A stretch of DNA of 19,550 bases from a virus (lineage: Duplodnaviria; Heunggongvirae; Uroviricota; Caudoviricetes). Positions 2,576 through 17,975 of the stretch are shown here, one piece after another (the first letter of the stretch is position 1; each line of letters begins with the position of its first letter). The notes below the pieces were generated by a model. That model made no database searches and had not been told where the DNA came from. It worked only from the letters and a program-made list of their open reading frames with translations. The stretch is taken from IMG/VR virus record IMGVR_UViG_2529292888_000015; one strand, written 5' to 3'. Both the position numbers and the translations under genes were made by a program.

Positions 2576-3445
<870 letters not shown>

Positions 3446-4172: not shown

Positions 4173-4916
4173 ATGGCAACTACATGTTCAGTTATATTGA
4201 TTTTGGAGTCCTTTGATGTTTATTTCGGAAAAGAGAGTGTGTTTCTGGAGAGAGGTTCATCTGTACTTGTCGACTCTAGCTCTAGAGATTTTTTCCTGAC
4301 ATATCCTGAAAGAGTGATAGTGGCGGATTTTGGCGCTGAGTTTATTAGTCGCTATTTGAAAGCTAATAACTTAAGGGATATTTCTGATTGTAGGGAATAT
4401 CCATCTTATTTAAAAATAAACTTTGCTGACTTCAGTTTAATTAAAGGATTAATTAGTTGGGCTAATCACTGTGCTGAATACATAGAAATTTTTGATGAGT
4501 CTATTGCTTTTACATGTCTCTCTGCATTTTCTTCTGAAAAACAATTTGGAGTATTTCTGTTTGGATGTTTGAAAAGCACAGGGGCTAAAGTTAAAACGAT
4601 TATTCATACGGATTTATCTGCACCATGGCGTCTTAAGGATATATCATCAAGATTATATCTCAGCGAAAGTTTACTAAAGAGGAAATTGAAAGAAGAGGGG
4701 GTATCATTCAGTAAGATCATACTTGATGAGAGGATGCAAATGGCTGAATATTTACTCAGCACTCGTTGTTATCCTATTAGTAAAGTAGCTAAGGTCTGTG
4801 GTTATGCCAGTGTCTCATACTTTACTTATGTATTTAGACGTTATTTTGGTGTTTCTCCAAGTCAATACTCTCAGAGGAGTTCAGAAAGTAAAATTCTTAC
4901 TCACCAGGGAATCTGA
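4173..4916 (+). CDS. AraC/XylS-family transcriptional regulator (AppY/EnvY/Rns-like small activator)
   Basis: 247 aa; C-terminal AraC-type double HTH (SKIILDERMQMAEYLLSTRCYPISKVAKVCGYASVSYFTYVFRRYFGVSPSQY); AT-rich gene with an extremely AT-rich upstream region. Confidence 0.85.
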   Translation: MATTCSVILILESFDVYFGKESVFLERGSSVLVDSSSRDFFLTYPERVIVADFGAEFISRYLKANNLRDISDCREYPSYLKINFADFSLIKGLISWANHCAEYIEIFDESIAFTCLSAFSSEKQFGVFLFGCLKSTGAKVKTIIHTDLSAPWRLKDISSRLYLSESLLKRKLKEEGVSFSKIILDERMQMAEYLLSTRCYPISKVAKVCGYASVSYFTYVFRRYFGVSPSQYSQRSSESKILTHQGI

Positions 4917-5878: not shown

Positions 5879-7060
5879 ATGCCTTTAAACGATATGCAGA
5901 TTCGCCGCGCTAAGCCTGAAGCTAAAGCCTATACATTTGGAGATGGGCTAGGGTTGTCATTACTTATAGAACCTAATGGAAGCAAGAGTTGGCGGTTCCG
6001 CTATCGCTATGCCGGCAAACCCAAAATGATCTCGCTTGGTGTTTACCCAACGATCACCCTTGCCGATGCTCGTTCCCGTCGTGATGAAGCTCGAAAACTT
6101 GTGGCAGAAGGAAAGAACCCTAGTGAGGTTCGAAAAGAGCAAAAGCTAGCTATGCAAACAGAGTCAGAGAACGCCTTCGAAAAGATAGCCAGAGAGTGGC
6201 ATCAACTTAAATCTGCTAAATGGTCGGCGGGATATGCATCAGACATCATGGAAGCGTTTAAGAACGACATTTTTCCTTATGTCGGAACAAGGCCTGTGGG
6301 AGAGATTAAACCGCTAGAGCTGCTGAACGTTCTGCGTAAAATTGAGAAACGTGGTGCGTTGGAGAAAATGCGCAAAGTGCGGCAGCGTTGCTCCGAAGTG
6401 TTTCGCTACGCAATTGCAACGGGTAGGGCGGAGTACAATCCTGCGGCTGATCTCTCCAGCGCTCTCGAAGTACACCAATCCAATCATTTCCCATTCCTAA
6501 AAGCTGATGAGATACCTGATTTTCTACGTGCCTTAGAGGGTTACTCCGGGAGTAAGCTTGTCCAGATAGCCACGAAATTACTGATGATTACGGGTGTGAG
6601 AACCATCGAATTACGCGCGGCATTATGGCAAGAATTTGATCTGGATAACGCTATTTGGGAAATTCCTGCTGAAAGGATGAAAATGCGTAGGCCACATCTT
6701 GTGCCCTTATCATCTCAAGCGGTAGATTTACTCAATGAACTCAAGATCATGACAGGGAACTATCGTTATGTTTTTCCAGGGCGGAACGATCCGAATAGGC
6801 CAATGAGCGAAGCGAGTATAAATCAAGCCATTAAGCGTATTGGGTATGGAGGAAAAGTCACTGGACATGGTTTTCGTCATACCCTTTCTACAATCCTGCA
6901 TGAGCAAGGTTTTGAGAGTGCTTGGATTGAAATCCAGTTGGCTCATGTAGATAAAAATTCTATTAGGGGGACTTATAACCATGCTCAATATTTTAGTGGA
7001 AGGAAGTCTATGATGGACTGGTACAGTAATTTGATATTTGAAAGACTAAAAAGGAGTTAA
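5879..7060 (+). CDS. int: P4-type tyrosine integrase
   Basis: N-terminus MPLNDMQIRRAKPEAKAYTFGDGLGLSLLIEPNGSKSWRFRYRYAGK is the typical P4-integrase arm-binding start; catalytic HGFRHTLST (HxxR) and C-terminal RGTYNHAQY tyrosine. Start set at ATG 5879 rather than the track's 5828. Confidence 0.92.
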   Translation: MPLNDMQIRRAKPEAKAYTFGDGLGLSLLIEPNGSKSWRFRYRYAGKPKMISLGVYPTITLADARSRRDEARKLVAEGKNPSEVRKEQKLAMQTESENAFEKIAREWHQLKSAKWSAGYASDIMEAFKNDIFPYVGTRPVGEIKPLELLNVLRKIEKRGALEKMRKVRQRCSEVFRYAIATGRAEYNPAADLSSALEVHQSNHFPFLKADEIPDFLRALEGYSGSKLVQIATKLLMITGVRTIELRAALWQEFDLDNAIWEIPAERMKMRRPHLVPLSSQAVDLLNELKIMTGNYRYVFPGRNDPNRPMSEASINQAIKRIGYGGKVTGHGFRHTLSTILHEQGFESAWIEIQLAHVDKNSIRGTYNHAQYFSGRKSMMDWYSNLIFERLKRS

Positions 7061-7063
7061 TTT

Positions 7064-7480
7064 GTGTCTCAACCACTTTCGGAAATATTGACATGGGATG
7101 ATGAACAATGGGAGGTATTTGTCCATGATTGGCTTATTGTCTGTAAATCAGATGATTACCCGTGGAGCGAACGTTTGGGAGGAGCTGGAGATAAAGGTAG
7201 AGACGTTGTTGGATATAAATCGGATCCTAACGTAGAAGGTTATTCTTGGGATAATTATCAATGCAAACTGTACAAAAAAAGTTTAGGGTTCTCTGATGTT
7301 GTAGTTGAGTTTGGAAAACTTATCTATTTTACTCTGAATGGTGATTATCCCATCCCTCAGAAGTACTTTTTTGTGGCACCCTATGATTTATCTACTACAT
7401 TTTCTAATTTATTGAAAAATAAAAACGAGCTTAAAAAAGCAGTCCTTGATTCATGGGATTCAGCAATTTCAAAAAAATAA
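7064..7480 (+). CDS. Mrr-like PD-(D/E)xK restriction-endonuclease catalytic domain protein; probable N-terminal part of a frameshifted effector gene (LmuA-like)
   Basis: GTG start with AAAAAGGAG RBS overlapping the int stop. GDKGRDVVGY ... DNYQCKLYKK ... KYFFVAPYDLSTTF aligns with the Mrr_cat motif order (GDGGIDG ... VQAKR ... GVFITTSGFT). ORF ends at a TAA immediately after an A7 run. Confidence 0.6.
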   Translation: MSQPLSEILTWDDEQWEVFVHDWLIVCKSDDYPWSERLGGAGDKGRDVVGYKSDPNVEGYSWDNYQCKLYKKSLGFSDVVVEFGKLIYFTLNGDYPIPQKYFFVAPYDLSTTFSNLLKNKNELKKAVLDSWDSAISKK

Positions 7481-8070
7481 CTAAAAAGATTGATATTCCA
7501 TTAGATGATGAAATAAAAAAATATATTGAGGATTTTGATTTTAGTATTTTTTACTCTCTACCCTTATCATTGATTTTAAATGATATTGCAAATACACACC
7601 TTTATTTTAAGTACTTTAACGAGCTGTATGTCGTGAGAATCCCTCCAAATGAAATTCCAACATACAATTCAAAAAAAGAGTCTGTATATGTTAATGCACT
7701 GCTTCAAGCCTATTCAGAGCATGGAAATAAAACTTATAGTTCTTTCTTAGAGCTTGATGATCCATACAGACGACACTTTAATAATAGTAGAAATGATTTT
7801 TATTTTGCATCTTCGCTTGAGGTTTTTGTCCGCGAAGTATTTAAAGATGATGTATTCAAAGCATTGAAATGTTACATTTCATCTTCAATTGAACCCGTCT
7901 TTTATGAAGACCATAATTATGCATTTATTAGGTGTAATGCAGTCTTGAAGCAGGCTGTTCTGACACCAATTGCACATTCAGTACTATCAAAAATATGTGA
8001 AGCAAATGATAAAAAAGGAATATGCCATCATTTGGTTAATGATGGTGAAGTAATTTGGACGGTGAGATAA
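7453..8070 (+). CDS. Hypothetical protein; probable C-terminal part of the same effector gene, in a different frame
   Basis: Overlaps the previous ORF by 28 nt; one extra A in the 7471..7477 run would fuse the two into a ~335-aa protein. Stop overlaps the next start (TAATG at 8068..8072). Very AT-rich. Confidence 0.55.
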   Translation: MGFSNFKKITKKIDIPLDDEIKKYIEDFDFSIFYSLPLSLILNDIANTHLYFKYFNELYVVRIPPNEIPTYNSKKESVYVNALLQAYSEHGNKTYSSFLELDDPYRRHFNNSRNDFYFASSLEVFVREVFKDDVFKALKCYISSSIEPVFYEDHNYAFIRCNAVLKQAVLTPIAHSVLSKICEANDKKGICHHLVNDGEVIWTVR

Positions 8071-8528
8071 TGGTTAGAATTTATAATTCAAGTTTAGAAG
8101 TGGCATGTCGAATGGCGAAAGTGCTCGTCGCTATTTATCCTTCTTCATTAAGCCTTGAACGGCTTATTTGTTTTGATTTTATTTTAGTAAATCTTAAGGA
8201 TTTTTTACCTGAAGAGATTAGTCTTCATCCTCCAATACCCCGTAGAGATGCTCAGTTAGCCCTAAAACGAGAGATTGTTTTAGAATCATTGGCTTTGTTG
8301 CAAGGCTATGAACTAGCCTCAAAAATTTATACACATCGTGGTTTTGTATATAAAGCTTCTGAAAAAACATATGCATTTACAAATTCTCTACATAATGAAT
8401 ATGTTGCGCAGATGGAGCATAATATAAATTTGGTGGTTAAGTTATATAGTGATATTCCTGATGAGCAGTTGCAATCAATTATAAAAAATAAAATTGGCAA
8501 ATATGATATGGAATTTAATTATGAATGA
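8070..8528 (+). CDS. Small predicted alpha-helical protein (~152 aa), middle gene of the cargo operon (LmuC/DdmB-like position)
   Basis: ATG at 8070 coupled to the upstream stop; stop TGA at 8526..8528 overlaps the downstream ATG at 8521 (ATGAATGA). No recognisable catalytic motif. Confidence 0.6.
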   Translation: MVRIYNSSLEVACRMAKVLVAIYPSSLSLERLICFDFILVNLKDFLPEEISLHPPIPRRDAQLALKREIVLESLALLQGYELASKIYTHRGFVYKASEKTYAFTNSLHNEYVAQMEHNINLVVKLYSDIPDEQLQSIIKNKIGKYDMEFNYE

Positions 8529-9153
8529 CAATTTTTTTACGTTCAGAAAAATAAAGGTAACCGGATTCAATAAATTAGATGCTATAATTGAATTTGGTTC
8601 TAAATTGACTATTTTATATGGTGGTTCTGACTCTGGAAAAACATACATATATTATTTGATTCGATATTTATTAGGGAGTGAAAAACTAAAAAATAAAGAT
8701 ATCGATCATGCTCAAGGTTATGATTTAGCCTATCTGGAATTTAATTTTCAAGGTAGGGTAATGACAATTGAGAGGTCTCTTCAGGATAGCGCCCATTACA
8801 GATTATATGATTCGAGCATTGAAAATGTTAGTGAAGCTAATCTGTTGATGGTTTTTTCCAAAAGTGCTTCGTCTAAAAAGAGTTTTTCATCATACTTTTA
8901 TGGTAGGTTGAATTTCAAAGAGGCTAAAGTAAGAACAAACTTAAGTAATACTCTTCATAAATTTAATCTTAATAATGTTTTTGAATTTTTTTGTATTGAT
9001 GAATTAAGAGTGTTAACTGAGAAGTCGTTAATTCTTTCTGATATTCCTAGCGAGGAGACAAAAAGAAAGTCTGAATTTAAATTCCTTTTAACTCAGAGAG
9101 ATGATACTAACTCCTTAGCAGAAAAACCAAATAAAAAAGCAAGATATTTTTAA
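8521..9153 (+). CDS. SMC/Rad50/RecF-like ABC ATPase, N-terminal head with Walker A; apparently terminated by an in-frame TAA
   Basis: FRKIKVTGFNKLDAIIEFGSKLTILYGGSDSGKTYIYYLIRYLLG is the SMC_N/AAA_23-type N-terminal strand plus Walker A (GGSDSGKT). The next ORF is in the same frame, separated only by TAA 9151..9153. Confidence 0.65.
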   Translation: MNDNFFTFRKIKVTGFNKLDAIIEFGSKLTILYGGSDSGKTYIYYLIRYLLGSEKLKNKDIDHAQGYDLAYLEFNFQGRVMTIERSLQDSAHYRLYDSSIENVSEANLLMVFSKSASSKKSFSSYFYGRLNFKEAKVRTNLSNTLHKFNLNNVFEFFCIDELRVLTEKSLILSDIPSEETKRKSEFKFLLTQRDDTNSLAEKPNKKARYF

Positions 9154-9183
9154 AAAAATCAAATTGCAAATATTTATGAGGAA

Positions 9184-9774
9184 TTGAAAGCGCAATTAAT
9201 TTATCCTGAATATGATCAAGTCATTGTTTCAAGAGAACTTGAGAAAGTAGAGCAAGATATTGAATCATCGAAAGATATATTGAAAGGTATTGTTGATGCA
9301 CTTGATGATAAGAAGCAATTATTAAAAGAGTTAAGTGATGAATTATATTCAATCAGTGACAGGGAAAAATACTTATCATTACTCATTGAAAGATTTAGTC
9401 TTCTTAAAGACCAATACTTTATAGATCTACAAAGAATAGATGTTGTATCACAGGCGAATTTCTATTTAAATAATTTTGCAGATATTTATTGTGAGTTCTG
9501 TAATACACCGCAAAAAAAAGAAAATGAAATATCATATGATGATTGTTTTTTGTCGTGTAATGCAGAAAAATTGAAAATCAAAAGCCAGCTGAAAGGATTA
9601 ATTGAATCAATCGGATCTAATGTTCGCGAACATGAATTAATTATGTTAAGAAAAAATGATGTTAATGAAATTTATCAATCAGAAAAAAGTGATTTTAAGA
9701 CGTTAGAAGATAAAAATATAAAACAATACATTCATCTCTTGAATCACTTTATGAATATAAAGACAATCTTTTAA
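9184..9774 (+). CDS. Coiled-coil segment with a central CxxC (CEFC), probable middle part of the same SMC-like ATPase
   Basis: Charged heptad-like sequence (ELEKVEQDIESSKDILKGIVDALDDKKQLLKELSDEL...); no in-frame ATG start (track uses TTG at 9184); same frame as 8521..9153. Confidence 0.5.
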   Translation: MKAQLIYPEYDQVIVSRELEKVEQDIESSKDILKGIVDALDDKKQLLKELSDELYSISDREKYLSLLIERFSLLKDQYFIDLQRIDVVSQANFYLNNFADIYCEFCNTPQKKENEISYDDCFLSCNAEKLKIKSQLKGLIESIGSNVREHELIMLRKNDVNEIYQSEKSDFKTLEDKNIKQYIHLLNHFMNIKTIF

Positions 9775-10340
9775 TGGATCACACAAAACATAGCATTCTA
9801 TCTTCATTACAAGATAAAGAAGATGATGTTGACGAACTTAAATACTCCGCCGAGGACTTTGACTCCTTAACAGTAGCTGATTTGTATGATATAGAAATAG
9901 CGATGCAAGACTTTTTGAATGATATAAATTTTGAAAATTCTAAAGATAACAAAGTGCGATTTGACGAAGATACATATGACTTTAATATCAATGGGAAACG
10001 CCGAGGAATGTTTGGTAAAGGTACCCGTGCAGTAATGCATGCTATATTTACCATTTGCTTTGCGGAATTTTTATCAAGAAAAGGGAATCCATTCATTGGA
10101 TTTGTTGTGCTTGATAGTCCATTAGTGACGCACTTTGATAAAGATAGAGGGGGTTCTCTATCGGATGTTAATAGCGTCAGTCTCAGTGATTCATTTTATC
10201 ACGCATTAATCAAAAGGGACTATAATTTCCAGATTGTAATTCTTGAGAATAAAGGTCCGACGTTCCAAATAAAAATTAATGATGCAAATAAAATCCATAA
10301 CTTAAATAAGAATGGAAGCTCTGGTTTTTATCCTGTTTAA
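9774..10340 (+). CDS. C-terminal head of an SMC-like ABC ATPase (signature-like and Walker B-like motifs, both non-canonical)
   Basis: GMFGKGTRAVMHAIFTICFAEFL ... FIGFVVLDSPL ... FQIVILEN occupy the positions of the signature, Walker B and H-loop of SMC-type heads but are degenerate (DS instead of DE). Start overlaps the upstream stop (TAATG); one extra A in the runs at 9712..9723 would fuse it to the preceding ORF. Confidence 0.55.
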   Translation: MDHTKHSILSSLQDKEDDVDELKYSAEDFDSLTVADLYDIEIAMQDFLNDINFENSKDNKVRFDEDTYDFNINGKRRGMFGKGTRAVMHAIFTICFAEFLSRKGNPFIGFVVLDSPLVTHFDKDRGGSLSDVNSVSLSDSFYHALIKRDYNFQIVILENKGPTFQIKINDANKIHNLNKNGSSGFYPV

Positions 10341-10370
10341 TACATTAAAAATATAACTGCTAATTGGGGT

Positions 10371-10396
10371 GCTCGAAATTATATTTCGTTTCGAGC
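10371..10396 (+). terminator. Hairpin downstream of the cargo operon (possible terminator, no clear U-tract)
   Basis: gctcgaaa (10371..10378) pairs with tttcgagc (10389..10396), beginning 31 bp after the stop at 10340. Confidence 0.3.
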
Positions 10397-10749
10397 GCTC
10401 AGTTCATTTCTAAATAATTTGCAAAATTATTTTGGGTACTTTCGCCTCTACACTTCCTTCGGGTGGTTCCACAATAATGGATCTCACCGGCGTTTGATAT
10501 TTTATAATCTAACCCCTTAGCGCGCGCAGCCCCCCACGCCTGCTCGCTTCGCTTAACAGACTGGTTTTCATGCATTCCGCAAATCGTCTCAGAAGCCACC
10601 ACACAAGGGCTTTCGCGTCAAAAATGGTGCATGAGAATCATGCGTTTTCATGCGCTATAGACATGCACTCATGCGCTCTCAGGCCAGCCAGGGAAAAGGC
10701 GTAAAAAATCCCAGTACTGGACCGGGATTACGTGGGCTTTTTTTGCTAA

Positions 10750-11022
10750 TCAGACAGGAATTTGCTGACGGCTTGACAGCTTTGACGCGGAGCCATAGCG
10801 ATTGAGAGTTTGCTGTTGTTTTTCCGGCATTTGTGCTTTCTCTGATTCCTGTTCATTGCGCCGGGGCTTCATGATTATCGTATCCACACTTTCCAGTGCG
10901 GTAAATGTGTAGGAACATTCAAGATTCTGGCACTGATACCATGAGCGTTTAACCGATGGTGCTTCATAGGCGGAGGTTCTGGCGTGTGCCGTCGTACCGC
11001 ATTCGGGACATTTAAGTGCCAT
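10750..11022 (-). CDS. Ogr/Delta-family zinc-finger late-gene transcriptional activator
   Basis: MALKCPECGTTAHARTSAYEAPSVKRSWYQCQNLECSYTFTALESV follows the Ogr pattern C..C..AHARTS...QC.N..CS.TF..ESV; GGAG RBS inside the end of the upstream gene. Confidence 0.85.
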   Translation of the reverse strand: MALKCPECGTTAHARTSAYEAPSVKRSWYQCQNLECSYTFTALESVDTIIMKPRRNEQESEKAQMPEKQQQTLNRYGSASKLSSRQQIPV

Positions 11023-11027
11023 TAATA

Positions 11028-11579
11028 TTACTCCTGCATGCCGTTAATGTAATCCAGACGTTGCTGAAAGCGCAGTTGTTGTGCAGGGGTGTAAGAGCTC
11101 TGGCAATCACGAACCATCATGGGGTCAGGCATCACACCGGATTCATCCAGAATCATACGATAATCCCCGGCAATTTCAGGCGGTGTTATTGCCAGCTGGC
11201 GAACCAGAGCATTGCGTAATATACGGGACGCAACGTCAACCCCTCCGCGCCCCTTCAGGAACGGAGCCAGTGCAGATGTCAGGGCTGCTCCATTCGCCTG
11301 CATAAAATTGCTGAGAGCGTCTTCTGTGCAGGCCTCCATCAGTTGATGCTGCGAGTAAATGCATTCGCGCGCAGCACAGTTAATTTGCCATTTCAGCACA
11401 TCCAGATGTTCCCGCTGTAATTCGAGCTGTCGAGCATAATCTGCTGGTTTTTCCATGGCAGTGAGGAGTGATTCTATCTGTTGTTCAACGGCTTTTCGGC
11501 TCTCACTATGTCCAGCCCACAGAATACGGGCATTTCTAAAACTGATAAGCGCTTGGTCTGGAGTGACTCGGGCCATCAT
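11028..11579 (-). CDS. psu: P4 Psu-like protein (polarity suppression / capsid decoration), assignment tentative
   Basis: 183 aa, close to P4 Psu size; sits in the late operon directly upstream of the Ogr/Delta gene and is coupled to the preceding gene (ATGA overlap at 11576..11579). Similarity to Psu is from imperfect memory. Confidence 0.5.
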   Translation of the reverse strand: MMARVTPDQALISFRNARILWAGHSESRKAVEQQIESLLTAMEKPADYARQLELQREHLDVLKWQINCAARECIYSQHQLMEACTEDALSNFMQANGAALTSALAPFLKGRGGVDVASRILRNALVRQLAITPPEIAGDYRMILDESGVMPDPMMVRDCQSSYTPAQQLRFQQRLDYINGMQE

Positions 11580-12328
11580 ACTGCTTTCTCCTTCTCAGCA
11601 CGTTCCTGACGAACCTTCATTTTATGCATAGCTGCTGGAGAGAGTTTATTACTGAAATCCAGACGGGCCGCATAATCCGGGGCAACTCCCGCCAGTTTAA
11701 ACACGGGGTCCTGTTCGGGCATCGCATCGTTAGTCAGAGCCGGTCTGGTGATATGTTTATGAATAAAATCTTTCAGCAGTGTGTCCGGGTCATTAACTGA
11801 ATGCACCACACCGACAACTGCGCTGGCTTCCCTGCCCATTGTTGATTTGAGCAGGCTTAGTGTCTGGATTAGTGCTTTTCCATGCGACTGCATAAAATCT
11901 TCCCAGATTTGTTTTGCGCGAATACCCACAAGGGTGTCGTGCGCGTGGATATACTTTCCGGCTAATTCCGCAGCCTCCTGCGGCAAAAGTGCATTTTCGC
12001 TTTCCTGAGCCGCCAGCAGCTCATCAAAATCCTCAAGCGTTTCTCGTCCCAGCGCAATTTCCGTGCGCAGTTTTTTCATTTCCTTTGAGACTACGCCCTG
12101 ACTTTCACGAAATAGCGTGCGCCACTCCTCATTCAGGGCGTTCGTCGTGGCTTCCATTTCAGCGCGGCGCTGGCGGATTGTCGCAATATTATCCGCTGCC
12201 GCTTTTTGCTGACGACGTGCTTCAAGCCATGCAGATTTGGTGGCATTCACTTTCTCAAGCGCCTGTTGCGTCGAAACAGGGATAGAAATTTCAACGATCG
12301 GGTTATTGTTCTGTTCTGGGATTGTCAT
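11576..12328 (-). CDS. First gene of the P4-like late operon; Sid-like (capsid size determination) by size and position
   Basis: 250-aa predicted helical protein, first gene of the leftward operon, divergent from the alpA/primase operon. No motif-level confirmation. Confidence 0.4.
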   Translation of the reverse strand: MTIPEQNNNPIVEISIPVSTQQALEKVNATKSAWLEARRQQKAAADNIATIRQRRAEMEATTNALNEEWRTLFRESQGVVSKEMKKLRTEIALGRETLEDFDELLAAQESENALLPQEAAELAGKYIHAHDTLVGIRAKQIWEDFMQSHGKALIQTLSLLKSTMGREASAVVGVVHSVNDPDTLLKDFIHKHITRPALTNDAMPEQDPVFKLAGVAPDYAARLDFSNKLSPAAMHKMKVRQERAEKEKAV

Positions 12329-13261: not shown

Positions 13262-13522
13262 ATGCGTAATATTTCTGTGTCTGCGCCAGCTCCTGCTGCG
13301 CCATTATTTCCTGTATCGAACCATCATGAGCGATTTTTACGCCTGCCTGAGGTGATGCACTTATGCGGGTTGTCCCGTTCGACCGTTTACGACCTGATCA
13401 GCCGCGATGCGTTTCCGAAGCAGATCCCGCTTGGCGGTAAAAATGTCGCCTGGGCACAGTCTGAGGTCAGCGCATGGATGGCGGACCGCATCAGCGCCCG
13501 TGGGCGGGGATGTGATGCATGA
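13262..13522 (+). CDS. alpA: AlpA / Vis-family phage transcriptional regulator (MerR-like HTH, excisionase-like)
   Basis: [50 protein letters not shown] is the AlpA signature; the true start may be downstream of the annotated ATG. Confidence 0.8.
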
Positions 13523-13881
13523 TGATACCTGCATACATTAAATACCTTTATTCTGGCTTGCTTACTGTCGTCATTTCCAGGTATAGTTTTTCCGCTGTCG
13601 CAAAATCGGCAGCCGGAATTGGCGTTCCGTATAACTTATTGGCGACAATTGACGCCCCTTGCGTCTTTTTTTACGTCGTAGCTCAGGCACAACCATTTTC
13701 AGGGCTGTGGTGTTTATGCTTACACCATGGTTCTATCGAGATAATGGTAGTCCGGGCGGGGCAGCCTTCGGGCTGGCCGGTTTCCAATAAGGCCGGTTAC
13801 GCCAACCCCGTTCGGGCTGCCACCAGTGAAATTGGCGTTTCCGGTGGTAGCAATAACCGCTACTTATTGGAGGCTGCCATC

Positions 13882-14076
13882 ATGGCTACAATCCTCACCC
13901 CGTCACACCCGCAATATGTCTTTGTGTTTGCCGCAATCCGCCGTGCTGACACTCACCCCCGCATCTGTATGCTTCGCACTGTCTCCTGCGATGAGCATTC
14001 CGCGCGCCGTTTGCTAGTCCGAGATTATGTACTCTCCCTTTCTGCACGGCTGCCTGCCGGGGAGGTGACGCTATGA
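13882..14076 (+). CDS. Small hypothetical protein (64 aa), first of three translationally coupled small ORFs upstream of the primase
   Basis: ATG at 13882 with GGAGG 8 nt upstream; stop overlaps the next ATG (ATGA at 14073..14076). The track's longer 13519 start gives an implausible N-terminal extension. Confidence 0.4.
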
Positions 14077-14294: not shown

Positions 14295-14539
14295 TGATAT
14301 GCTGTGAATCTCTTCTGGCACTTCGTGCCGCTCTGTATCGCCGTGCCATAGCCCGCGAGCTGGAAGGGTTCTATCTGCGCCAGCATGGGCAGCAAAGAGG
14401 GCTGGAAATTGCCTGCGCGTTGCTTTCGGATCTGATGGAGTCGGGGCCGCTTAAAGCCTGTCCGGTTCTCTCACTGCTCGGAATGACGGTCATGGATGAA
14501 CTTTGTTCCCGTCACCTCAACAAACCAGCGCTGCACTAA
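14294..14539 (+). CDS. Small hypothetical protein (81 aa), P4-like early operon
   Basis: ATG 14294 preceded by GGAGGTGG; stop at 14537..14539 lies within the primase RBS region. Confidence 0.55.
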
Positions 14540-14552
14540 GGAGGGCCGCACA

Positions 14553-16886
14553 ATGTCAGGAATGAAAGTTAGCCAGGCTGAGAAAGCAGCTCGGGGTCAC
14601 TGGTCAAGAATTTTACCTGCGCTGGGCGTAAATGTACTGAAAAATCGGCACCAGCCCTGCCCGGTCTGTGCCGGGAAAGACCGCTTTCGATTTGATGACC
14701 AGGAAGGGCGGGGAACGTGGTTCTGTAACCAGTGCGGGGCAGGTGATGGCCTGGCGCTTGTAAGTAAAGTACTGGATGTAGGCATTAGTGAAGCGGCAGA
14801 CAGAATAAACGGCATTATCGGAAACCTGCTGCCAGTATCTCAGGGAATGCTTGAATCTGGTTCTCCTGAAAAAGAGGACGGGAGAAAAGCTGCAGCAGTG
14901 CTGGCTGCCCGTTTGTTTGATAAGTCCCGCCAGACCACTGGCAATGCCTATCTGACGAGTAAAGGGTTTCCTGCACTGCCTTGCCGGGAATTAACCGCTA
15001 TGCATAAAGTCGGTGGTGTGGCATTTCGCGCGGGAGATCTTGTCGTTCCATTGTATGCAGATGGAGAGCTGGTAAATCTGCAGTTAATCAACGCTAATGG
15101 GGGCAAATGCTTCCTTAAAGGCGGTCAGGTTAAGAATGCCTTTTACCTGGTTGAAGGTACTGCCAAAGCAGCCAAACGGCTCTGGATAGCGGAAGGATAT
15201 GCCACCGCACTTACTATCAACTATCTGACTGGCGATGCTGTCATGGTGGCCTTTTCGTCCGTCAATTTCCTTTCCCTGGCGAGCATTGCCTGCAGTGAGT
15301 ACCCAACGCACCAGATAATTATTGCTGCTGACCGCGATCTCAACGGTGCGGGGCAAACAAGGGGCGCAGCTGTTACCGGGGCCTGCAATTGCACAATGGC
15401 GCTCCCGCCTGTGTTTGGTGACTGGAACGATGCATTCACGCAAAACGGCGAAGAAGCCACCCGGCATGCAATTCATGAAGTAATAAAACCAGCTGTTGCC
15501 AGCCCCTTCGACACAATGAGCGAAGCTGAATTTACCGCGCTGAGCGTCAGCGAAAAAGCGCAGAGGGTAGTGGATCACTATAAAAATTCACTGGCAGTAG
15601 ACCCGAACGGGCAGCTCCTTTCACGCTATGAGGCGGGGGCCTGGAAAGTTATCTATTACGCCGATTTTGCCCGTGATGTCGCTGCGCTGTTTCAGCGCCT
15701 CGACGCACCTTTTTCATCCGCGAAAATTGCGTCTCTCGTGGAAACCCTCAAACTGATCGTTCCGCAACAGCAGAATCCGGCGCGGCAACTTATCGGATTT
15801 CGCAACGGTGTGCTCGATACCCGGACAGGATTGTTCAGCCCGCACGATAAGAAGCACTGGTTACGTACGCTGTGCGAGGTGGATTACACGCAGCCCGTTG
15901 ACGGTGAGTCACTGGAAACCCATGCCCCGGCATTCTGGCGCTGGCTGGATCGTGCCGCAGGTTTTAATCCTGAAAAACGGGACATTATTCTGGCTGCATT
16001 GTTTATGGTGCTGGCTAACCGTTATGACTGGCAGCTGTTTCTGGAGGTCACTGGCCCTGGCGGAAGTGGAAAGAGTATTCTTGCTGAAATAGCAACCATG
16101 CTGGCGGGTGAAGATAACGCGACCTCGGCAACCATTGAAATGCTTGAGTCGCCAAGAGAACGAGCTGCGTTAATAGGTTTTTCACTGATTCGACTTCCCG
16201 ACCAGGAAAAGTGGAGCGGTGACGGGGCCGGACTAAAAGCCATCACTGGCGGCGATGCGGTATCCGTTGATCCCAAATATCAGAACGCCTATTCAACCCA
16301 CATCCCGGCGGTCATCCTGGCTGTGAACAATAATCCGATGCGCTTCACTGATCGTAGTGGTGGAGTTTCACGCCGAAGGGTGATCCTGCATTTCCCCGAC
16401 CAGATAGCCCCGGAGGAACGCGATACCCAGCTCAAAGAGAAAATTGCCAGTGAGCTAGCGGTGATTGTTCGCCAGCTTATGCAGCGTTTCAGCGACCCAA
16501 TGAGTGCCAGGACATTGCTTCAGTCACAGCAGAACTCCGATGAAGCGCTCACCATCAAACGTGATGCTGATTCAGCTTTTGATTTTTGCGGCTACCTTGA
16601 GGTCCTACCTGACACCACGGGCATGTTTATGGGGAACGCTAATATTGTTCCACGTCAGCCTCGAACTTACCTCTACCATGCCTATCTGGTCTACATGGAG
16701 GCTAACGGCTATAAAAATACGCTCAGTCTGACCATGTTTGGCAAGGGGCTACCGTTAATGCTCAAGGAATATGGGCTGCAGTATGAGAAACGACGGACCA
16801 ATCAAGGAATGCAGACTAATCTGGCCCTAAGAGAGGAAAGCAATGCTGACTGGTTGCCAAAATGCGATGAGTTTGCAGCGAAATAA
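14553..16886 (+). CDS. P4 alpha-type bifunctional DNA primase/helicase (zinc-binding primase, TOPRIM, D5-like P-loop NTPase)
   Basis: AAGGAGGG RBS at 14538..14545; zinc motif CPVCAGKDRFRF...CNQCGAGDG; TOPRIM acidic motifs (IAEGYATA, IIIAADRDLNG); Walker A GPGGSGKS and Walker B-like region. Start at 14553 rather than the track's 14496. Confidence 0.9.
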   Translation: MSGMKVSQAEKAARGHWSRILPALGVNVLKNRHQPCPVCAGKDRFRFDDQEGRGTWFCNQCGAGDGLALVSKVLDVGISEAADRINGIIGNLLPVSQGMLESGSPEKEDGRKAAAVLAARLFDKSRQTTGNAYLTSKGFPALPCRELTAMHKVGGVAFRAGDLVVPLYADGELVNLQLINANGGKCFLKGGQVKNAFYLVEGTAKAAKRLWIAEGYATALTINYLTGDAVMVAFSSVNFLSLASIACSEYPTHQIIIAADRDLNGAGQTRGAAVTGACNCTMALPPVFGDWNDAFTQNGEEATRHAIHEVIKPAVASPFDTMSEAEFTALSVSEKAQRVVDHYKNSLAVDPNGQLLSRYEAGAWKVIYYADFARDVAALFQRLDAPFSSAKIASLVETLKLIVPQQQNPARQLIGFRNGVLDTRTGLFSPHDKKHWLRTLCEVDYTQPVDGESLETHAPAFWRWLDRAAGFNPEKRDIILAALFMVLANRYDWQLFLEVTGPGGSGKSILAEIATMLAGEDNATSATIEMLESPRERAALIGFSLIRLPDQEKWSGDGAGLKAITGGDAVSVDPKYQNAYSTHIPAVILAVNNNPMRFTDRSGGVSRRRVILHFPDQIAPEERDTQLKEKIASELAVIVRQLMQRFSDPMSARTLLQSQQNSDEALTIKRDADSAFDFCGYLEVLPDTTGMFMGNANIVPRQPRTYLYHAYLVYMEANGYKNTLSLTMFGKGLPLMLKEYGLQYEKRRTNQGMQTNLALREESNADWLPKCDEFAAK

Positions 16887-17018: not shown

Positions 17019-17975
17019 TTATTTTTGAATTGATTTAAACATCCCATCGAGTTGTAATTTATTTATGTCGGTTTTCTTTATGGCTTTAATTAAGTTTTCA
17101 ATAACTTCCAAAGAAAAAATTACATCTTTCTTTTCAATTCTAACCCCCCCGTGGTGGCTGCAAGCATTAAGGATGTCCTTTGTAATTTCAACATCATTTT
17201 TCATTAATGGTTCATAGTCCAGAGCCTCAATAACAGAAACTAAACTACCTAGCATTTGCTCTTGGTATTGAACGTTGTTTAAATGCATTATACGAATATT
17301 AACAAGCATGAGAATATATTCTAAATATCTCCTGGCAGTATTTCCTTTCTCTTGTAAAGAATCACGATCATATTCCTCAATACTCATGACTTCATTATGT
17401 AAAGAGGCTATTTTGTGCTCTGCTAATGAAATATTTATCGCATCCATGAGGTTTCGTGAGAAGCCTGTAGATGTAACATGACCATTTGCGGGCCTTGTTA
17501 AAATACATGTAGTATAGCAATTTATATTTGGGGTCTGGATTGTCTCATTTACTCTTTTAACCGTTCTATAAACGTCTACCATATAAGAACCTGAGTTTTC
17601 AAATGAACATGAAGAGCATTTTGTATTATATATTCTATTTAGAGATAACTGATTGTGATAGTATCCCTTTAAGAAAGCATATATAGTGTCATTAAACTCG
17701 ACAAACACAACGGACTCAATATATATATGGAATTTATCATTGGGGTGCCACTCTAATTCAAGTCTTCTTGTAGAGTCATCAAAGGAAAAGTTTGAAATAA
17801 AATCCCAGTTACCTAAATCTATAAAATCAACGATATTTCTACCTGCACCATGGATATTTTTATTTATTAAAGTTGTGATTGAGTTTTTTATAATGTCCCA
17901 ATCATGAATTTCATGATCGAATTTATTATTGATGGTTTCTTTTATTTGATTGGAAAAGTTTGAATAACTAGTCAC
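17019..17975 (-). CDS. Hypothetical protein (318 aa), AT-rich cargo gene between primase and attR; function unknown
   Basis: Long uninterrupted ORF in a very AT-rich block flanked by AT-rich non-coding DNA (16920..17018 and 17976..18505); no motif recognisable by eye. Confidence 0.6.
   Translation of the reverse strand: MTSYSNFSNQIKETINNKFDHEIHDWDIIKNSITTLINKNIHGAGRNIVDFIDLGNWDFISNFSFDDSTRRLELEWHPNDKFHIYIESVVFVEFNDTIYAFLKGYYHNQLSLNRIYNTKCSSCSFENSGSYMVDVYRTVKRVNETIQTPNINCYTTCILTRPANGHVTSTGFSRNLMDAINISLAEHKIASLHNEVMSIEEYDRDSLQEKGNTARRYLEYILMLVNIRIMHLNNVQYQEQMLGSLVSVIEALDYEPLMKNDVEITKDILNACSHHGGVRIEKKDVIFSLEVIENLIKAIKKTDINKLQLDGMFKSIQK

What the first reader, a model, noticed from the sequence alone, without database searches (positions are those of the whole stretch)
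7450..9775. Cargo operon genes are split at homopolymer runs: decayed system, sequencing artefact, or genuinely multi-subunit?
Three discontinuities break what look like two genes. (a) The nuclease ORF stops at TAA 7478..7480 just after an A7 run (7471..7477); one extra A fuses it in frame to the next ORF, giving a ~335-aa protein. (b) The ATPase N-head ORF ends at TAA 9151..9153, yet the next ORF continues in the same frame with only a TTG start. (c) The coiled-coil ORF and the C-terminal head ORF are in different frames; one extra A in the runs at 9712..9716 or 9720..9723 would fuse them. Two -1 shifts both repairable by adding an A in poly-A tracts is the signature of homopolymer under-calling, but could equally be real inactivation or slippage-based phase variation. 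The tidy stop/start overlaps (TAATG, ATGAATGA) also leave open a real multi-polypeptide arrangement.
Basis: seen in the sequence. Interest (0 to 1): 0.6.

Follow-up and report, generated by a model that had tools for sequence, protein, structure and literature searches.

The report
Decayed Lamassu defence operon in O157:H7
The "split genes" are the mutated remains of a known three-gene anti-phage system (Lamassu) carried by a P4-like satellite prophage of E. coli O157:H7; the breaks are real, fixed mutations rather than sequencing errors or a multi-subunit design, so the finding is correct but ordinary.

Summary
The window is E. coli O157:H7 (Sakai prophage Sp2, P4-like). The cargo between the integrase and delta/psu/sid is a short Lamassu (ABC-3C) operon with three genes. 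LmuA is an Mrr-type nuclease with a CTD6 domain, LmuC is the MC2 component, and LmuB is a Rad50/SMC-like ATPase with a CxxC zinc hook.

Five orthologous loci (Proteus mirabilis, Pantoea alhagi and related assemblies, three of them in the same P4-like layout) carry contiguous genes of 335, 152 and 606 aa. Against them the window has exactly three lesions:
- a 1-nt deletion that leaves the A7 run at 7471..7477;
- a TTA-to-TAA nonsense substitution at 9152;
- a 1-nt deletion in the A-run 9712..9716.

Repairing these three restores exact colinearity.

The same sequence occurs in about 309 independent complete genomes, so a sequencing artefact is excluded. No genome has the restored allele at either frameshift, so phase variation is not supported.

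The two frameshifts are shared with O55:H7. The nonsense mutation is absent from O55:H7, O157:H- 493/89 and LSU61. Further lesions have accumulated in sublineages: A8 to A7 in 66 of 309 records, other run-length changes, an IS insertion and deletions.

Verdict: a progressively decaying pseudogenised defence system, already partly annotated as such. Low interest.

The parts
5879..7060 (+). P4-like tyrosine integrase (intS, ECs_0289), the left boundary of the satellite's cargo hotspot
   Evidence: Sakai annotation. Orthologous loci L010-L012 have the same integrase-LmuA junction.
7064..7480 (+). LmuA fragment 1: the complete N-terminal Mrr-type (PD-(D/E)xK) nuclease domain, 138 aa with a GTG start, cut off by a frameshift
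   Evidence: PADLOC LmuA PDLC03852 positions 10-140 of 336, E 9e-41. 39% identity (E 1e-26) to the N-domain of P0140, which passes Pfam Mrr_cat. G42, D43, G45, D47, Q66, C67 and K68 are 99-100% conserved across 117 homologues.
7471..7477 (+). Lesion (a): an A7 run left by a 1-nt deletion. Intact orthologues read TCA AAG AAA ATA or TCC AAT AAA ATA here.
   Evidence: alignment. Identical in O55:H7 and LSU61. The restored A8 allele occurs in 0 of 309 records.
7477..8070 (+). LmuA fragment 2: the C-terminal regulatory/docking domain (ABC-3C CTD6). The mechanical ORF starts at ATG 7453.
   Evidence: PADLOC LmuA positions 141-333 of 336, E 3.9e-44. Pfam PF20282 CTD6, E 7.7e-30.
8070..8528 (+). LmuC (ABC-3C middle component 2), 152 aa, apparently intact
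   Evidence: PADLOC LmuC E 2.5e-36. Pfam MC2 E 6e-30. Same length as in the orthologous loci.
8521..9153 (+). LmuB fragment 1: the N-terminal half of the ABC ATPase head (Walker A GGSDSGKT at residues 34-41)
   Evidence: PADLOC LmuB PDLC03863 positions 3-199 of 610, E 8e-50. Pfam AAA_23/SMC_N. Conserved residues.
9151..9153 (+). Lesion (b): a TAA nonsense codon derived from TTA (Leu211) by T to A at 9152
   Evidence: Orthologues have TTA or CTG. TTA is retained in exactly 10 records (O55:H7 strains, O157:H- 493/89, LSU61) and all others have TAA.
9154..9774 (+). LmuB fragment 2: the coiled-coil arm with a CxxC zinc-hook motif (C324/C327, about 9490..9501). The mechanical ORF starts at TTG 9184.
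   Evidence: PADLOC LmuB positions 231-412 of 610. C324 and C327 are at least 90% conserved in 34 homologues.
9512..9519 (+). A8 run that is A7 in a sublineage, giving a fourth, later frameshift there
   Evidence: A7 in 66 of 309 records, including TW14359 and EC4115.
9683..9688 (+). A6 run that varies between lineages: A5 in O55:H7 DEC5D and A7 in LSU61. Each variant creates a further premature stop.
   Evidence: alignment. Annotated CDS ends.
9712..9716 (+). Lesion (c): an A5 run left by a 1-nt deletion. Proteus has A6: GGT AAA AAA TAT.
   Evidence: alignment. The restored allele occurs in 0 of 309 records. Identical in O55:H7 and LSU61.
9774..10340 (+). LmuB fragment 3: the C-terminal half of the ATPase head (Walker B/D-loop FVVLDSP at residues 528-534). 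Its ATG is an internal Met of the intact protein.
   Evidence: PADLOC LmuB positions 428-608 of 610, E 5e-37. Conserved G499, K500, G501, D532, S533 and P534.
10367..10400 (+). Terminator-like hairpin that ends the operon
10750..12328 (-). P4 delta, psu and sid homologues, the right boundary of the cargo hotspot
   Evidence: Pfam Ogr_Delta and Psu. Sakai annotation.

Best explanation
The region is a pseudogenised short Lamassu (ABC-3C) anti-phage operon, lmuA-lmuC-lmuB of the Mrr-effector type. It sits in the integrase-proximal cargo hotspot of the P4-like satellite prophage Sp2 (CP-933I) of E. coli O157:H7.

How the intact system works is inferred from published work on other Lamassu systems. 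Two LmuB SMC/Rad50-like ATPases and one LmuC hold a monomeric LmuA through its C-terminal domain. Sensing of phage DNA ends or replication intermediates releases LmuA, which oligomerises. Its nuclease then destroys DNA and aborts the infection.

In this lineage two 1-nt deletions arose before the O55:H7/O157:H7 split. One lies between the nuclease and CTD6 domains of LmuA. The other lies between the coiled coil and the C-terminal head of LmuB. A TTA-to-TAA nonsense mutation then cut the LmuB N-head from its coiled coil on the branch to typical O157:H7.

The ATPase head needs the Walker A half and the Walker B half joined through the coiled coil. The nuclease needs its docking domain. The operon is therefore most likely non-functional and drifting neutrally, as the further lineage-specific frameshifts, an IS insertion and deletions show.

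Shown here: the identity of the genes, the nature, position and ancestry of each lesion, their fixation, and their order. Inferred: loss of function, and the mechanism of the intact system.
For: - Family identity: PADLOC LmuA/LmuC/LmuB with E values from 1e-36 to 1e-50, the fragments tiling single profiles. Pfam CTD6 and MC2. Mrr_cat in homologues, and 99-100% conserved GDxGxD...QCK residues.
- Intact orthologues: LmuB homologues of 606 aa at 88% and 76% identity and 100% coverage. Five loci have contiguous genes of 335, 152 and 606 aa. Three of these loci share the layout proBA-int-LmuACB-delta-psu-sid-primase.
- Lesions: the base-level alignment shows exactly one missing base at (a), one at (c), and TTA/CTG in place of TAA at (b). 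The repaired genes are exactly colinear with the orthologues.
- Population: 309-310 E. coli records at 99% identity or more. Restored (a) or (c) alleles occur in 0 of 309 records. TTA at (b) occurs only in 10 basal-lineage records.
- Extra lesions: A8 to A7 in 66 of 309 records; A5 or A7 at 9683..9688, and T-run changes; IS1203 insertions; partial deletions in about 9 records; and a variant with the N-head deleted.
- RefSeq already marks ECs_0293 (LmuB) as a pseudogene.
- Break points fall in ungapped, conserved stretches of 117 LmuA and 34 LmuB homologues.
- Sp2 does not circularise, replicate or package in Sakai (PMC2669165).
- Lamassu mechanism: PMC12663957.
Against: - Loss of function was not tested experimentally.
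- Site (a) is a perfect A_AAA_AAA -1 slippery heptamer followed by a stop codon. A small fraction of full-length LmuA could therefore be made by ribosomal or transcriptional slippage.
- N- and C-terminal halves of Rad50-type ATPase heads can in principle reassemble from separate polypeptides.
- LmuC and all fragments still have open frames.
- The N/S ratio on the E. coli branch is not raised (44:81 against 63:91, p 0.39). This shows only that the inactivation is recent, not that selection has been lost for a long time.
Confidence: 0.92

Rival explanations
1. Contingency locus or programmed recoding. The A7 run at 7471..7477 and the A-run at 9712..9716 act as slippage switches, either as DNA-level phase variation or as -1 ribosomal/transcriptional frameshifting. 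They would keep a toxic abortive-infection system mostly off while allowing low-level or reversible expression.
For: Site (a) is a canonical X_XXY_YYZ heptamer (A_AAA_AAA) followed directly by a stop codon. A -1 slip there yields exactly the orthologue-like product ...SKKITKK.... Homopolymer lengths elsewhere in LmuB do vary between lineages. Lamassu is toxic when over-expressed (PMC12663957).
Against: - Neither site shows any 'ON' allele in 309 records.
- Intact orthologues have no frameshift, and at (a) no pure homopolymer (AAGAAAA or AATAAAA).
- No stimulatory RNA structure lies downstream of either site (z +1.47 and -0.53).
- Site (c) is not a proper slippery heptamer.
- Typical O157:H7 also needs read-through of TAA 9151, and 66 of 309 records carry a further frameshift.
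- The run-length changes that are seen all add new stops and none restores the frame.
Confidence: 0.04
2. Sequencing or assembly artefact. Homopolymer under-calling produced false frameshifts in otherwise intact genes.
For: Both frameshifts are repaired by adding one A to an A-run. A few single-genome run-length differences could themselves be assembly errors, for example T7 to T6 in AR-0429 and in OkiPb01699.
Against: - The identical sequence is present in about 309 independently sequenced complete genomes, including Sakai and EDL933.
- Lesion (b) is a substitution, not an indel, and its distribution separates the basal lineages from typical O157:H7.
- The A8-to-A7 variant is shared by 66 of 309 records, including TW14359 and EC4115.
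Confidence: 0.01
3. A genuinely split, still functional multi-subunit variant. Six polypeptides reassemble: a free Mrr nuclease plus a CTD6 adaptor, and an LmuB head rebuilt from separate N-head, coiled-coil and C-head pieces.
For: All six ORFs are open and preceded by possible start codons. LmuC is intact. It is general knowledge that split Rad50 head constructs can reassemble in vitro. The LmuA/LmuC half of the operon is almost invariant in most genomes.
Against: - No homologue in the searches shows this arrangement. About 117 LmuA and 34 LmuB relatives are single chains without gaps at the break points.
- The middle LmuB ORF has only a TTG start 30 nt after the stop, and the last ORF's ATG is an internal Met.
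- Different lineages have different further truncations.
- About 9 records have deletions in LmuA/LmuC.
- The near-invariance is what the very low diversity of O157:H7 would give anyway.
Confidence: 0.03

Closest known systems
Short (type II) Lamassu, Mrr-effector subtype (LmuA-LmuC-LmuB), equivalent to the ABC-3C system with CTD6 and MC2 components
   Same: Gene order and content match: LmuA with an Mrr-type nuclease N-domain and CTD6, LmuC/MC2 of 152 aa, and a roughly 606-aa LmuB with Walker A, a short coiled coil, a CxxC zinc hook and Walker B. After three repairs the genes are colinear with intact orthologues in Proteus and Pantoea.
   Different: LmuA is cut in two and LmuB in three by two 1-nt deletions and one nonsense codon, so no intact effector or ATPase is encoded.
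Vibrio cholerae DdmABC / Lamassu Vc-Cap4 (structurally characterised; PMC12663957)
   Same: The same three-component logic and presumably the same LmuA1:LmuB2:LmuC1 architecture. LmuB senses DNA ends and LmuA oligomerises to become active.
   Different: The effector domain is Mrr-type rather than Cap4. No sequence-level match to any solved chain was found. Activity was not tested, and the genes are disrupted here.
Defence-system cargo in the P4-like satellite hotspot between integrase and psu/sid/delta (Rousset et al. 2022, PMC9122126; PMC13586616)
   Same: The same position in a P4-like element with intact-looking delta, psu, sid, alpA, ash and primase genes. An intact version of the same Lamassu sits at the same position in Pantoea-type P4-like satellites.
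   Different: PMC13586616 reports that recognisable defence-gene pseudogenes are rare in P4 hotspots (under 1% of P4 pseudogenes) and that systems are swapped before they decay. Here the defence cargo has decayed in place and has persisted from O55:H7 through O157:H7.

Membership tests
Lamassu (short / type II; ABC-3C) | LmuB: an SMC/Rad50-like ABC ATPase with Walker A, an intervening coiled coil (often with a CxxC zinc hook) and a C-terminal Walker B/signature half | tested here: met
   The three fragments cover PADLOC LmuB PDLC03863 positions 3-199, 231-412 and 428-608 of 610. Walker A is at residues 34-41, C324xxC327 is present, and VLDSP is at 529-534; all are conserved in 34 homologues. 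These features are met at the sequence level only, because the gene is interrupted.
Lamassu (short / type II; ABC-3C) | LmuC: a small middle component encoded between LmuA and LmuB | tested here: met
   PADLOC LmuC E 2.5e-36 and Pfam MC2 E 6e-30. It is 152 aa, as in the orthologues.
Lamassu (short / type II; ABC-3C) | LmuA: an N-terminal effector domain fused to a Lamassu-specific C-terminal domain on one polypeptide | tested here: not met
   Both domains are present: the Mrr-type N-domain and CTD6. They are separated by a frameshift at 7471..7480. Orthologues and about 117 homologues have them fused. The locus is therefore a pseudogenised member, not a working one.
Lamassu (short / type II; ABC-3C) | Complete, uninterrupted reading frames for all three genes | tested here: not met
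   There are two frameshifts and one nonsense codon. RefSeq flags LmuB (ECs_0293) as a pseudogene.
Lamassu (short / type II; ABC-3C) | Protection against phage or plasmids by abortive infection | not testable with these tools
   This needs plaque or efficiency-of-plating assays with the native and the repaired operon.
P4-like satellite defence hotspot | Variable cargo located between the P4-type integrase and the psu/sid/delta module of an element that encodes the P4 alpha primase | tested here: met
   Integrase 5879..7060, cargo 7064..10340, delta/psu/sid 10750..12328, ash 13519..14076, primase 14496..16886. Pantoea-type loci have the same layout.
Programmed -1 ribosomal frameshift site | A slippery heptamer conserved among homologues, with a stimulatory element, where the frameshift product is the functional protein | tested here: not met
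   The heptamer A_AAA_AAA is present at (a) only. It is not conserved: orthologues are in frame without a homopolymer. No downstream structure was found.
Phase-variable contingency locus | Both ON and OFF repeat lengths segregating within a population | tested here: not met
   The restored allele occurs in 0 of 309 records at (a) and at (c).

The most novel reading that the evidence does not exclude
The A_AAA_AAA-plus-stop site at 7471..7480 may support enough -1 slippage to make a trickle of full-length Mrr-CTD6 LmuA. The intact LmuC and the LmuA/LmuB fragments might then retain some activity, for example a domesticated or attenuated nuclease module in an immobilised satellite. The locus would then be a low-expression or repurposed remnant rather than a dead one. 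A milder version of this reading: the locus is a well-dated natural counter-example to the 'swap before decay' rule proposed for P4 defence hotspots, which could be used to time defence-system decay along the O55:H7 to O157:H7 stepwise lineage.
Probability: 0.05. Interest if true: 0.5.

Novelty: already known. Interest (0 to 1): 0.15.

Why it matters
The main value is practical.

Homology-based defence finders can report 'Lamassu' in O157:H7; a published abstract lists it among O157:H7 defences found with PADLOC (PMC12050774). The operon cannot encode an intact effector or ATPase, so phage-therapy or biocontrol predictions for O157:H7 should not count it as active.

The locus is also a clean, phylogenetically ordered example of a defence system decaying in place inside an immobilised P4-like satellite. 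A recent survey argues that this outcome is rare (PMC13586616). The intact Proteus and Pantoea orthologues give ready templates for resurrecting and testing this Mrr-type short Lamassu.

Tried and rejected
- Sequencing artefact: rejected, because the sequence is identical in about 309 complete genomes.
- An 81-nt query across site (b) returned nothing, probably because of low-complexity masking. A 192-nt query worked.
- The genome-contig scan with repaired LmuA gave only one distant Clostridia locus. The useful orthologous loci came from the look-up of encoding contigs with P0001 and P0002.
- The short LmuA calls in L008 and L010 (145 and 201 aa) looked like recurrent inactivation. They are only start-codon calls; the 335-aa GTG-initiated frame is intact.
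- The system that Rousset et al. 2022 synthesised from O157:H7 FRIK944, and found to have no activity, looked like a possible direct test of this locus. It is a cytidine-deaminase system from another P4-like element.
- Sequence search of the PDB with repaired LmuA and intact LmuB found no significant match.
- Downstream RNA structure as a frameshift stimulator: none found.
- A branch-specific N/S test for relaxed selection was not significant. It shows only that the inactivation is recent.
- Selective conservation of the LmuA/LmuC half: not supported. About 9 records have deletions there and one has an indel.


Full report
**Origin of the window.** The 3.4-kb region 7000..10400 matches 310 records (309 genomes) of complete E. 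coli assemblies at 99% identity or more. Almost all are O157:H7, with some O55:H7. In strain Sakai the window corresponds to about 304929..324478 of NC_002695.2. The finding lies inside 'prophage Sp2, P4-like phage'.

The layout along the window is:
- P4-type integrase, 5879..7060;
- an AT-rich cargo block of 28-35% GC against about 50% in the flanks, 7064..10340;
- delta, psu and sid on the minus strand, 10750..12328;
- ash and the alpha primase further on.

This is the integrase-proximal variable hotspot of P4-like satellites, known to hold anti-phage systems (PMC9122126; PMC13586616).

**Check of the observation.**
- A7 at 7471..7477 is followed by TAA 7478..7480. One extra A yields a 335-aa fusion.
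- TAA 9151..9153 is an in-frame stop between two ORFs in the same frame.
- The last ORF's frame is open from 9714 and the preceding frame closes at 9772..9774, so one added base in between fuses them.

**What the genes are.** PADLOC profiles identify the six ORFs as pieces of three Lamassu proteins.
- ORF1 and ORF2 cover positions 10-140 and 141-333 of one 336-position LmuA profile (E 9e-41 and 4e-44).
- ORF3 is LmuC (E 2.5e-36).
- ORFs 4-6 cover 3-199, 231-412 and 428-608 of one 610-position LmuB profile (E 8e-50, 2e-21, 5e-37).

Pfam gives the equivalent ABC-3C names: CTD6 for ORF2 and MC2 for ORF3.

ORF1 is the effector domain. It is 39% identical (E 1e-26) to the N-domain of a homologue that passes Pfam Mrr_cat. 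Its GDxGxD...QCK residues are 99-100% conserved in 117 full-length homologues.

LmuB carries Walker A (residues 34-41), a conserved C324xxC327 zinc-hook motif in the coiled coil, and the Walker B/D-loop half in the last fragment. The system is thus a short Lamassu with an Mrr effector.

**Orthologues.** A search with the repaired LmuB found full-length 606-aa proteins at 88% identity (Proteus mirabilis) and 76% identity (Pantoea alhagi) with 100% coverage, plus some thirty further homologues of 594-621 aa.

Their contigs show LmuA 335 aa, LmuC 152 aa and LmuB 606 aa as contiguous genes in all five loci examined. The short LmuA calls in two NCBI records are only start-codon choices; the GTG-initiated 335-aa frame is open.

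Three of these loci have the same P4-like architecture as the window: proBA, integrase, LmuA-C-B, delta, psu, sid, alpA, ash, primase. They are true positional orthologues.

About 117 LmuA relatives are single polypeptides of 324-381 aa. The break points in LmuA (between K138 and I139) and in LmuB (L211, and around K398) fall in ungapped stretches of the family alignments, with conserved residues close by.

**The lesions.** The DNA alignment of the window with the five loci shows three differences.
- (a) Orthologues read TCA AAG AAA ATA AGT or TCC AAT AAA ATA AGT. The window reads TCA AAA AAA TAA. One base is missing.
- (b) Orthologues have TTA or CTG (Leu). The window has TAA.
- (c) Proteus reads GGT AAA AAA TAT (A6). 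The window reads GAT AAA AAT AT (A5 at 9712..9716).

With these three edits all three genes are exactly the orthologues' lengths of 1008, 459 and 1821 nt, with no other indel.

The overlap ATGAATGA at 8521..8528 is the normal LmuC/LmuB junction and also occurs in intact loci. The TAATG at 9772..9776 is an internal TTA ATG (Leu-Met) of LmuB seen out of frame.

**Not an artefact, not phase variation.** Short queries carrying the restored alleles showed that none of 309 records has the restored A8 at (a) or the restored A6 at (c); every record differs from the query by one position. Replication across hundreds of independent assemblies excludes under-calling. The absence of any ON allele argues against a contingency switch.

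Site (a) is formally a perfect -1 slippery heptamer (A_AAA_AAA) followed by a stop codon, and a -1 slip would give the orthologue-like product. However, it is not conserved, because intact relatives are in frame without a homopolymer. No downstream structure is present at either site (z +1.47 and -0.53). A little leaky full-length LmuA cannot be excluded.

**Order of events and continuing decay.**
- Lesions (a) and (c) are shared by O55:H7 DEC5D and the atypical O157:H7 strain LSU61, so they predate the O55:H7/O157:H7 split.
- The ancestral TTA at (b) survives in exactly ten records: the O55:H7 strains, FDAARGOS_946, O157:H- 493/89 and LSU61. All other records have TAA. The nonsense mutation therefore arose on the branch to typical O157:H7.
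- More damage followed:
  - The A8 run 9512..9519 is A7 in 66 of 309 records, including TW14359 and EC4115.
  - The A6 run 9683..9688 is A5 in O55:H7 DEC5D and A7 in LSU61, each creating a new stop.
  - Single genomes have T7 to T6 changes.
  - Three strains carry an IS1203 in the locus.
  - About nine records lack part of LmuA/LmuC.
  - One assembly has the LmuB N-head deleted, fusing LmuC to the coiled coil.
- Every observed run-length change adds a stop and none restores a frame.
- The N/S ratio on the E. coli branch since the split from the Proteus allele is not raised (44:81 against 63:91, p 0.39). The gene was therefore under constraint for most of that branch, and the inactivation is recent.

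**Mechanism.** For intact Lamassu, published structures show an LmuA1:LmuB2:LmuC1 complex that sequesters monomeric LmuA, senses dsDNA ends and phage replication origins, and releases LmuA to tetramerise and activate its nuclease. Over-expression is toxic through LmuA auto-activation (PMC12663957).

By homology the repaired operon should work the same way with an Mrr nuclease. In the window the nuclease is separated from its docking domain, and the two halves of the ATPase head are separated from the coiled coil that joins them. The most likely state is loss of function (inference).

Either gene could have been hit first. Because LmuA is the toxic component, loss of LmuB control might have selected for the LmuA frameshift, but (a) and (c) co-occur everywhere and their order cannot be resolved.

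**What is already known.** RefSeq annotates Sakai ECs_0293 (LmuB) as a pseudogene, while the two LmuA pieces are annotated as ordinary hypothetical proteins. Sp2 is reported not to circularise, replicate or package, and its P2-like helper is defective (PMC2669165). This fits a cargo that can no longer be swapped by recombination among mobile satellites.

A 2026 survey reports that recognisable defence pseudogenes are rare in P4 hotspots (PMC13586616), so this locus is one of the exceptions. A conference abstract lists Lamassu among the O157:H7 defences detected by PADLOC (PMC12050774). The present analysis says that this hit should not be counted as an active system.

**Verdict.** It is an ordinary, partly annotated pseudogenised member of a well-known defence family. 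Interest is low, with modest value as a dated example of in-place decay and as a caution for automated defence-system calls.

Noticed in passing
window 2576..3400 (- strand): An intact single-gene defence protein, PD-T4-3 (GIY-YIG nuclease; PADLOC E 2.4e-140, Pfam LEM-3-like GIY-YIG). It lies in the lambda-like Sp1 remnant next to the P4-like element, so a working defence gene sits a few kb from the dead Lamassu.
   Followed up: partly
window 17019..17975 (- strand): A 318-aa ORF in 29-33% GC DNA immediately after the P4 alpha primase (ECs_0304, hypothetical). It has no Pfam or PADLOC match and could be a second cargo or defence candidate of the satellite.
   Followed up: partly
window 4173..4916 (+ strand): An AraC-family HTH regulator in a 33-38% GC island between the Sp1 remnant and the Sp2 integrase, followed by an IS3-family fragment.
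   Followed up: no
window 9512..9519: The A8 run is A7 in 66 of 309 E. coli records, including TW14359 and EC4115. It is a fourth frameshift shared by many assemblies, and could serve as a lineage marker.
   Followed up: yes
window about 8480..9160; protein P0027: One public assembly encodes a 344-aa fusion of LmuC to the LmuB coiled coil (…SIIKN|QIANIYEEL…). This implies a deletion of about 0.66 kb covering the LmuB N-head.
   Followed up: partly
E. coli records H1-H3 (NZ_CP089270.1, NZ_CP089034.1, NZ_CP089032.1), matching window 7000..10400: An IS3-family IS1203 copy is inserted within the Lamassu locus. The match spans 4714 bp instead of 3401 bp, in two pieces.
   Followed up: no
E. coli records matching window 7064..8528 (e.g. 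strains 2149, 9234, F3113): About nine of 310 records have lost part or nearly all of the integrase/LmuA/LmuC segment. One copy of the locus lies on a 46.9-kb record labelled as a plasmid (AR-0428, NZ_CP044147.1), which may be an assembly oddity.
   Followed up: no
window 10367..10400: A 13-bp-stem terminator-like hairpin lies 27 nt after the LmuB stop codon and marks the end of the cargo operon.
   Followed up: no
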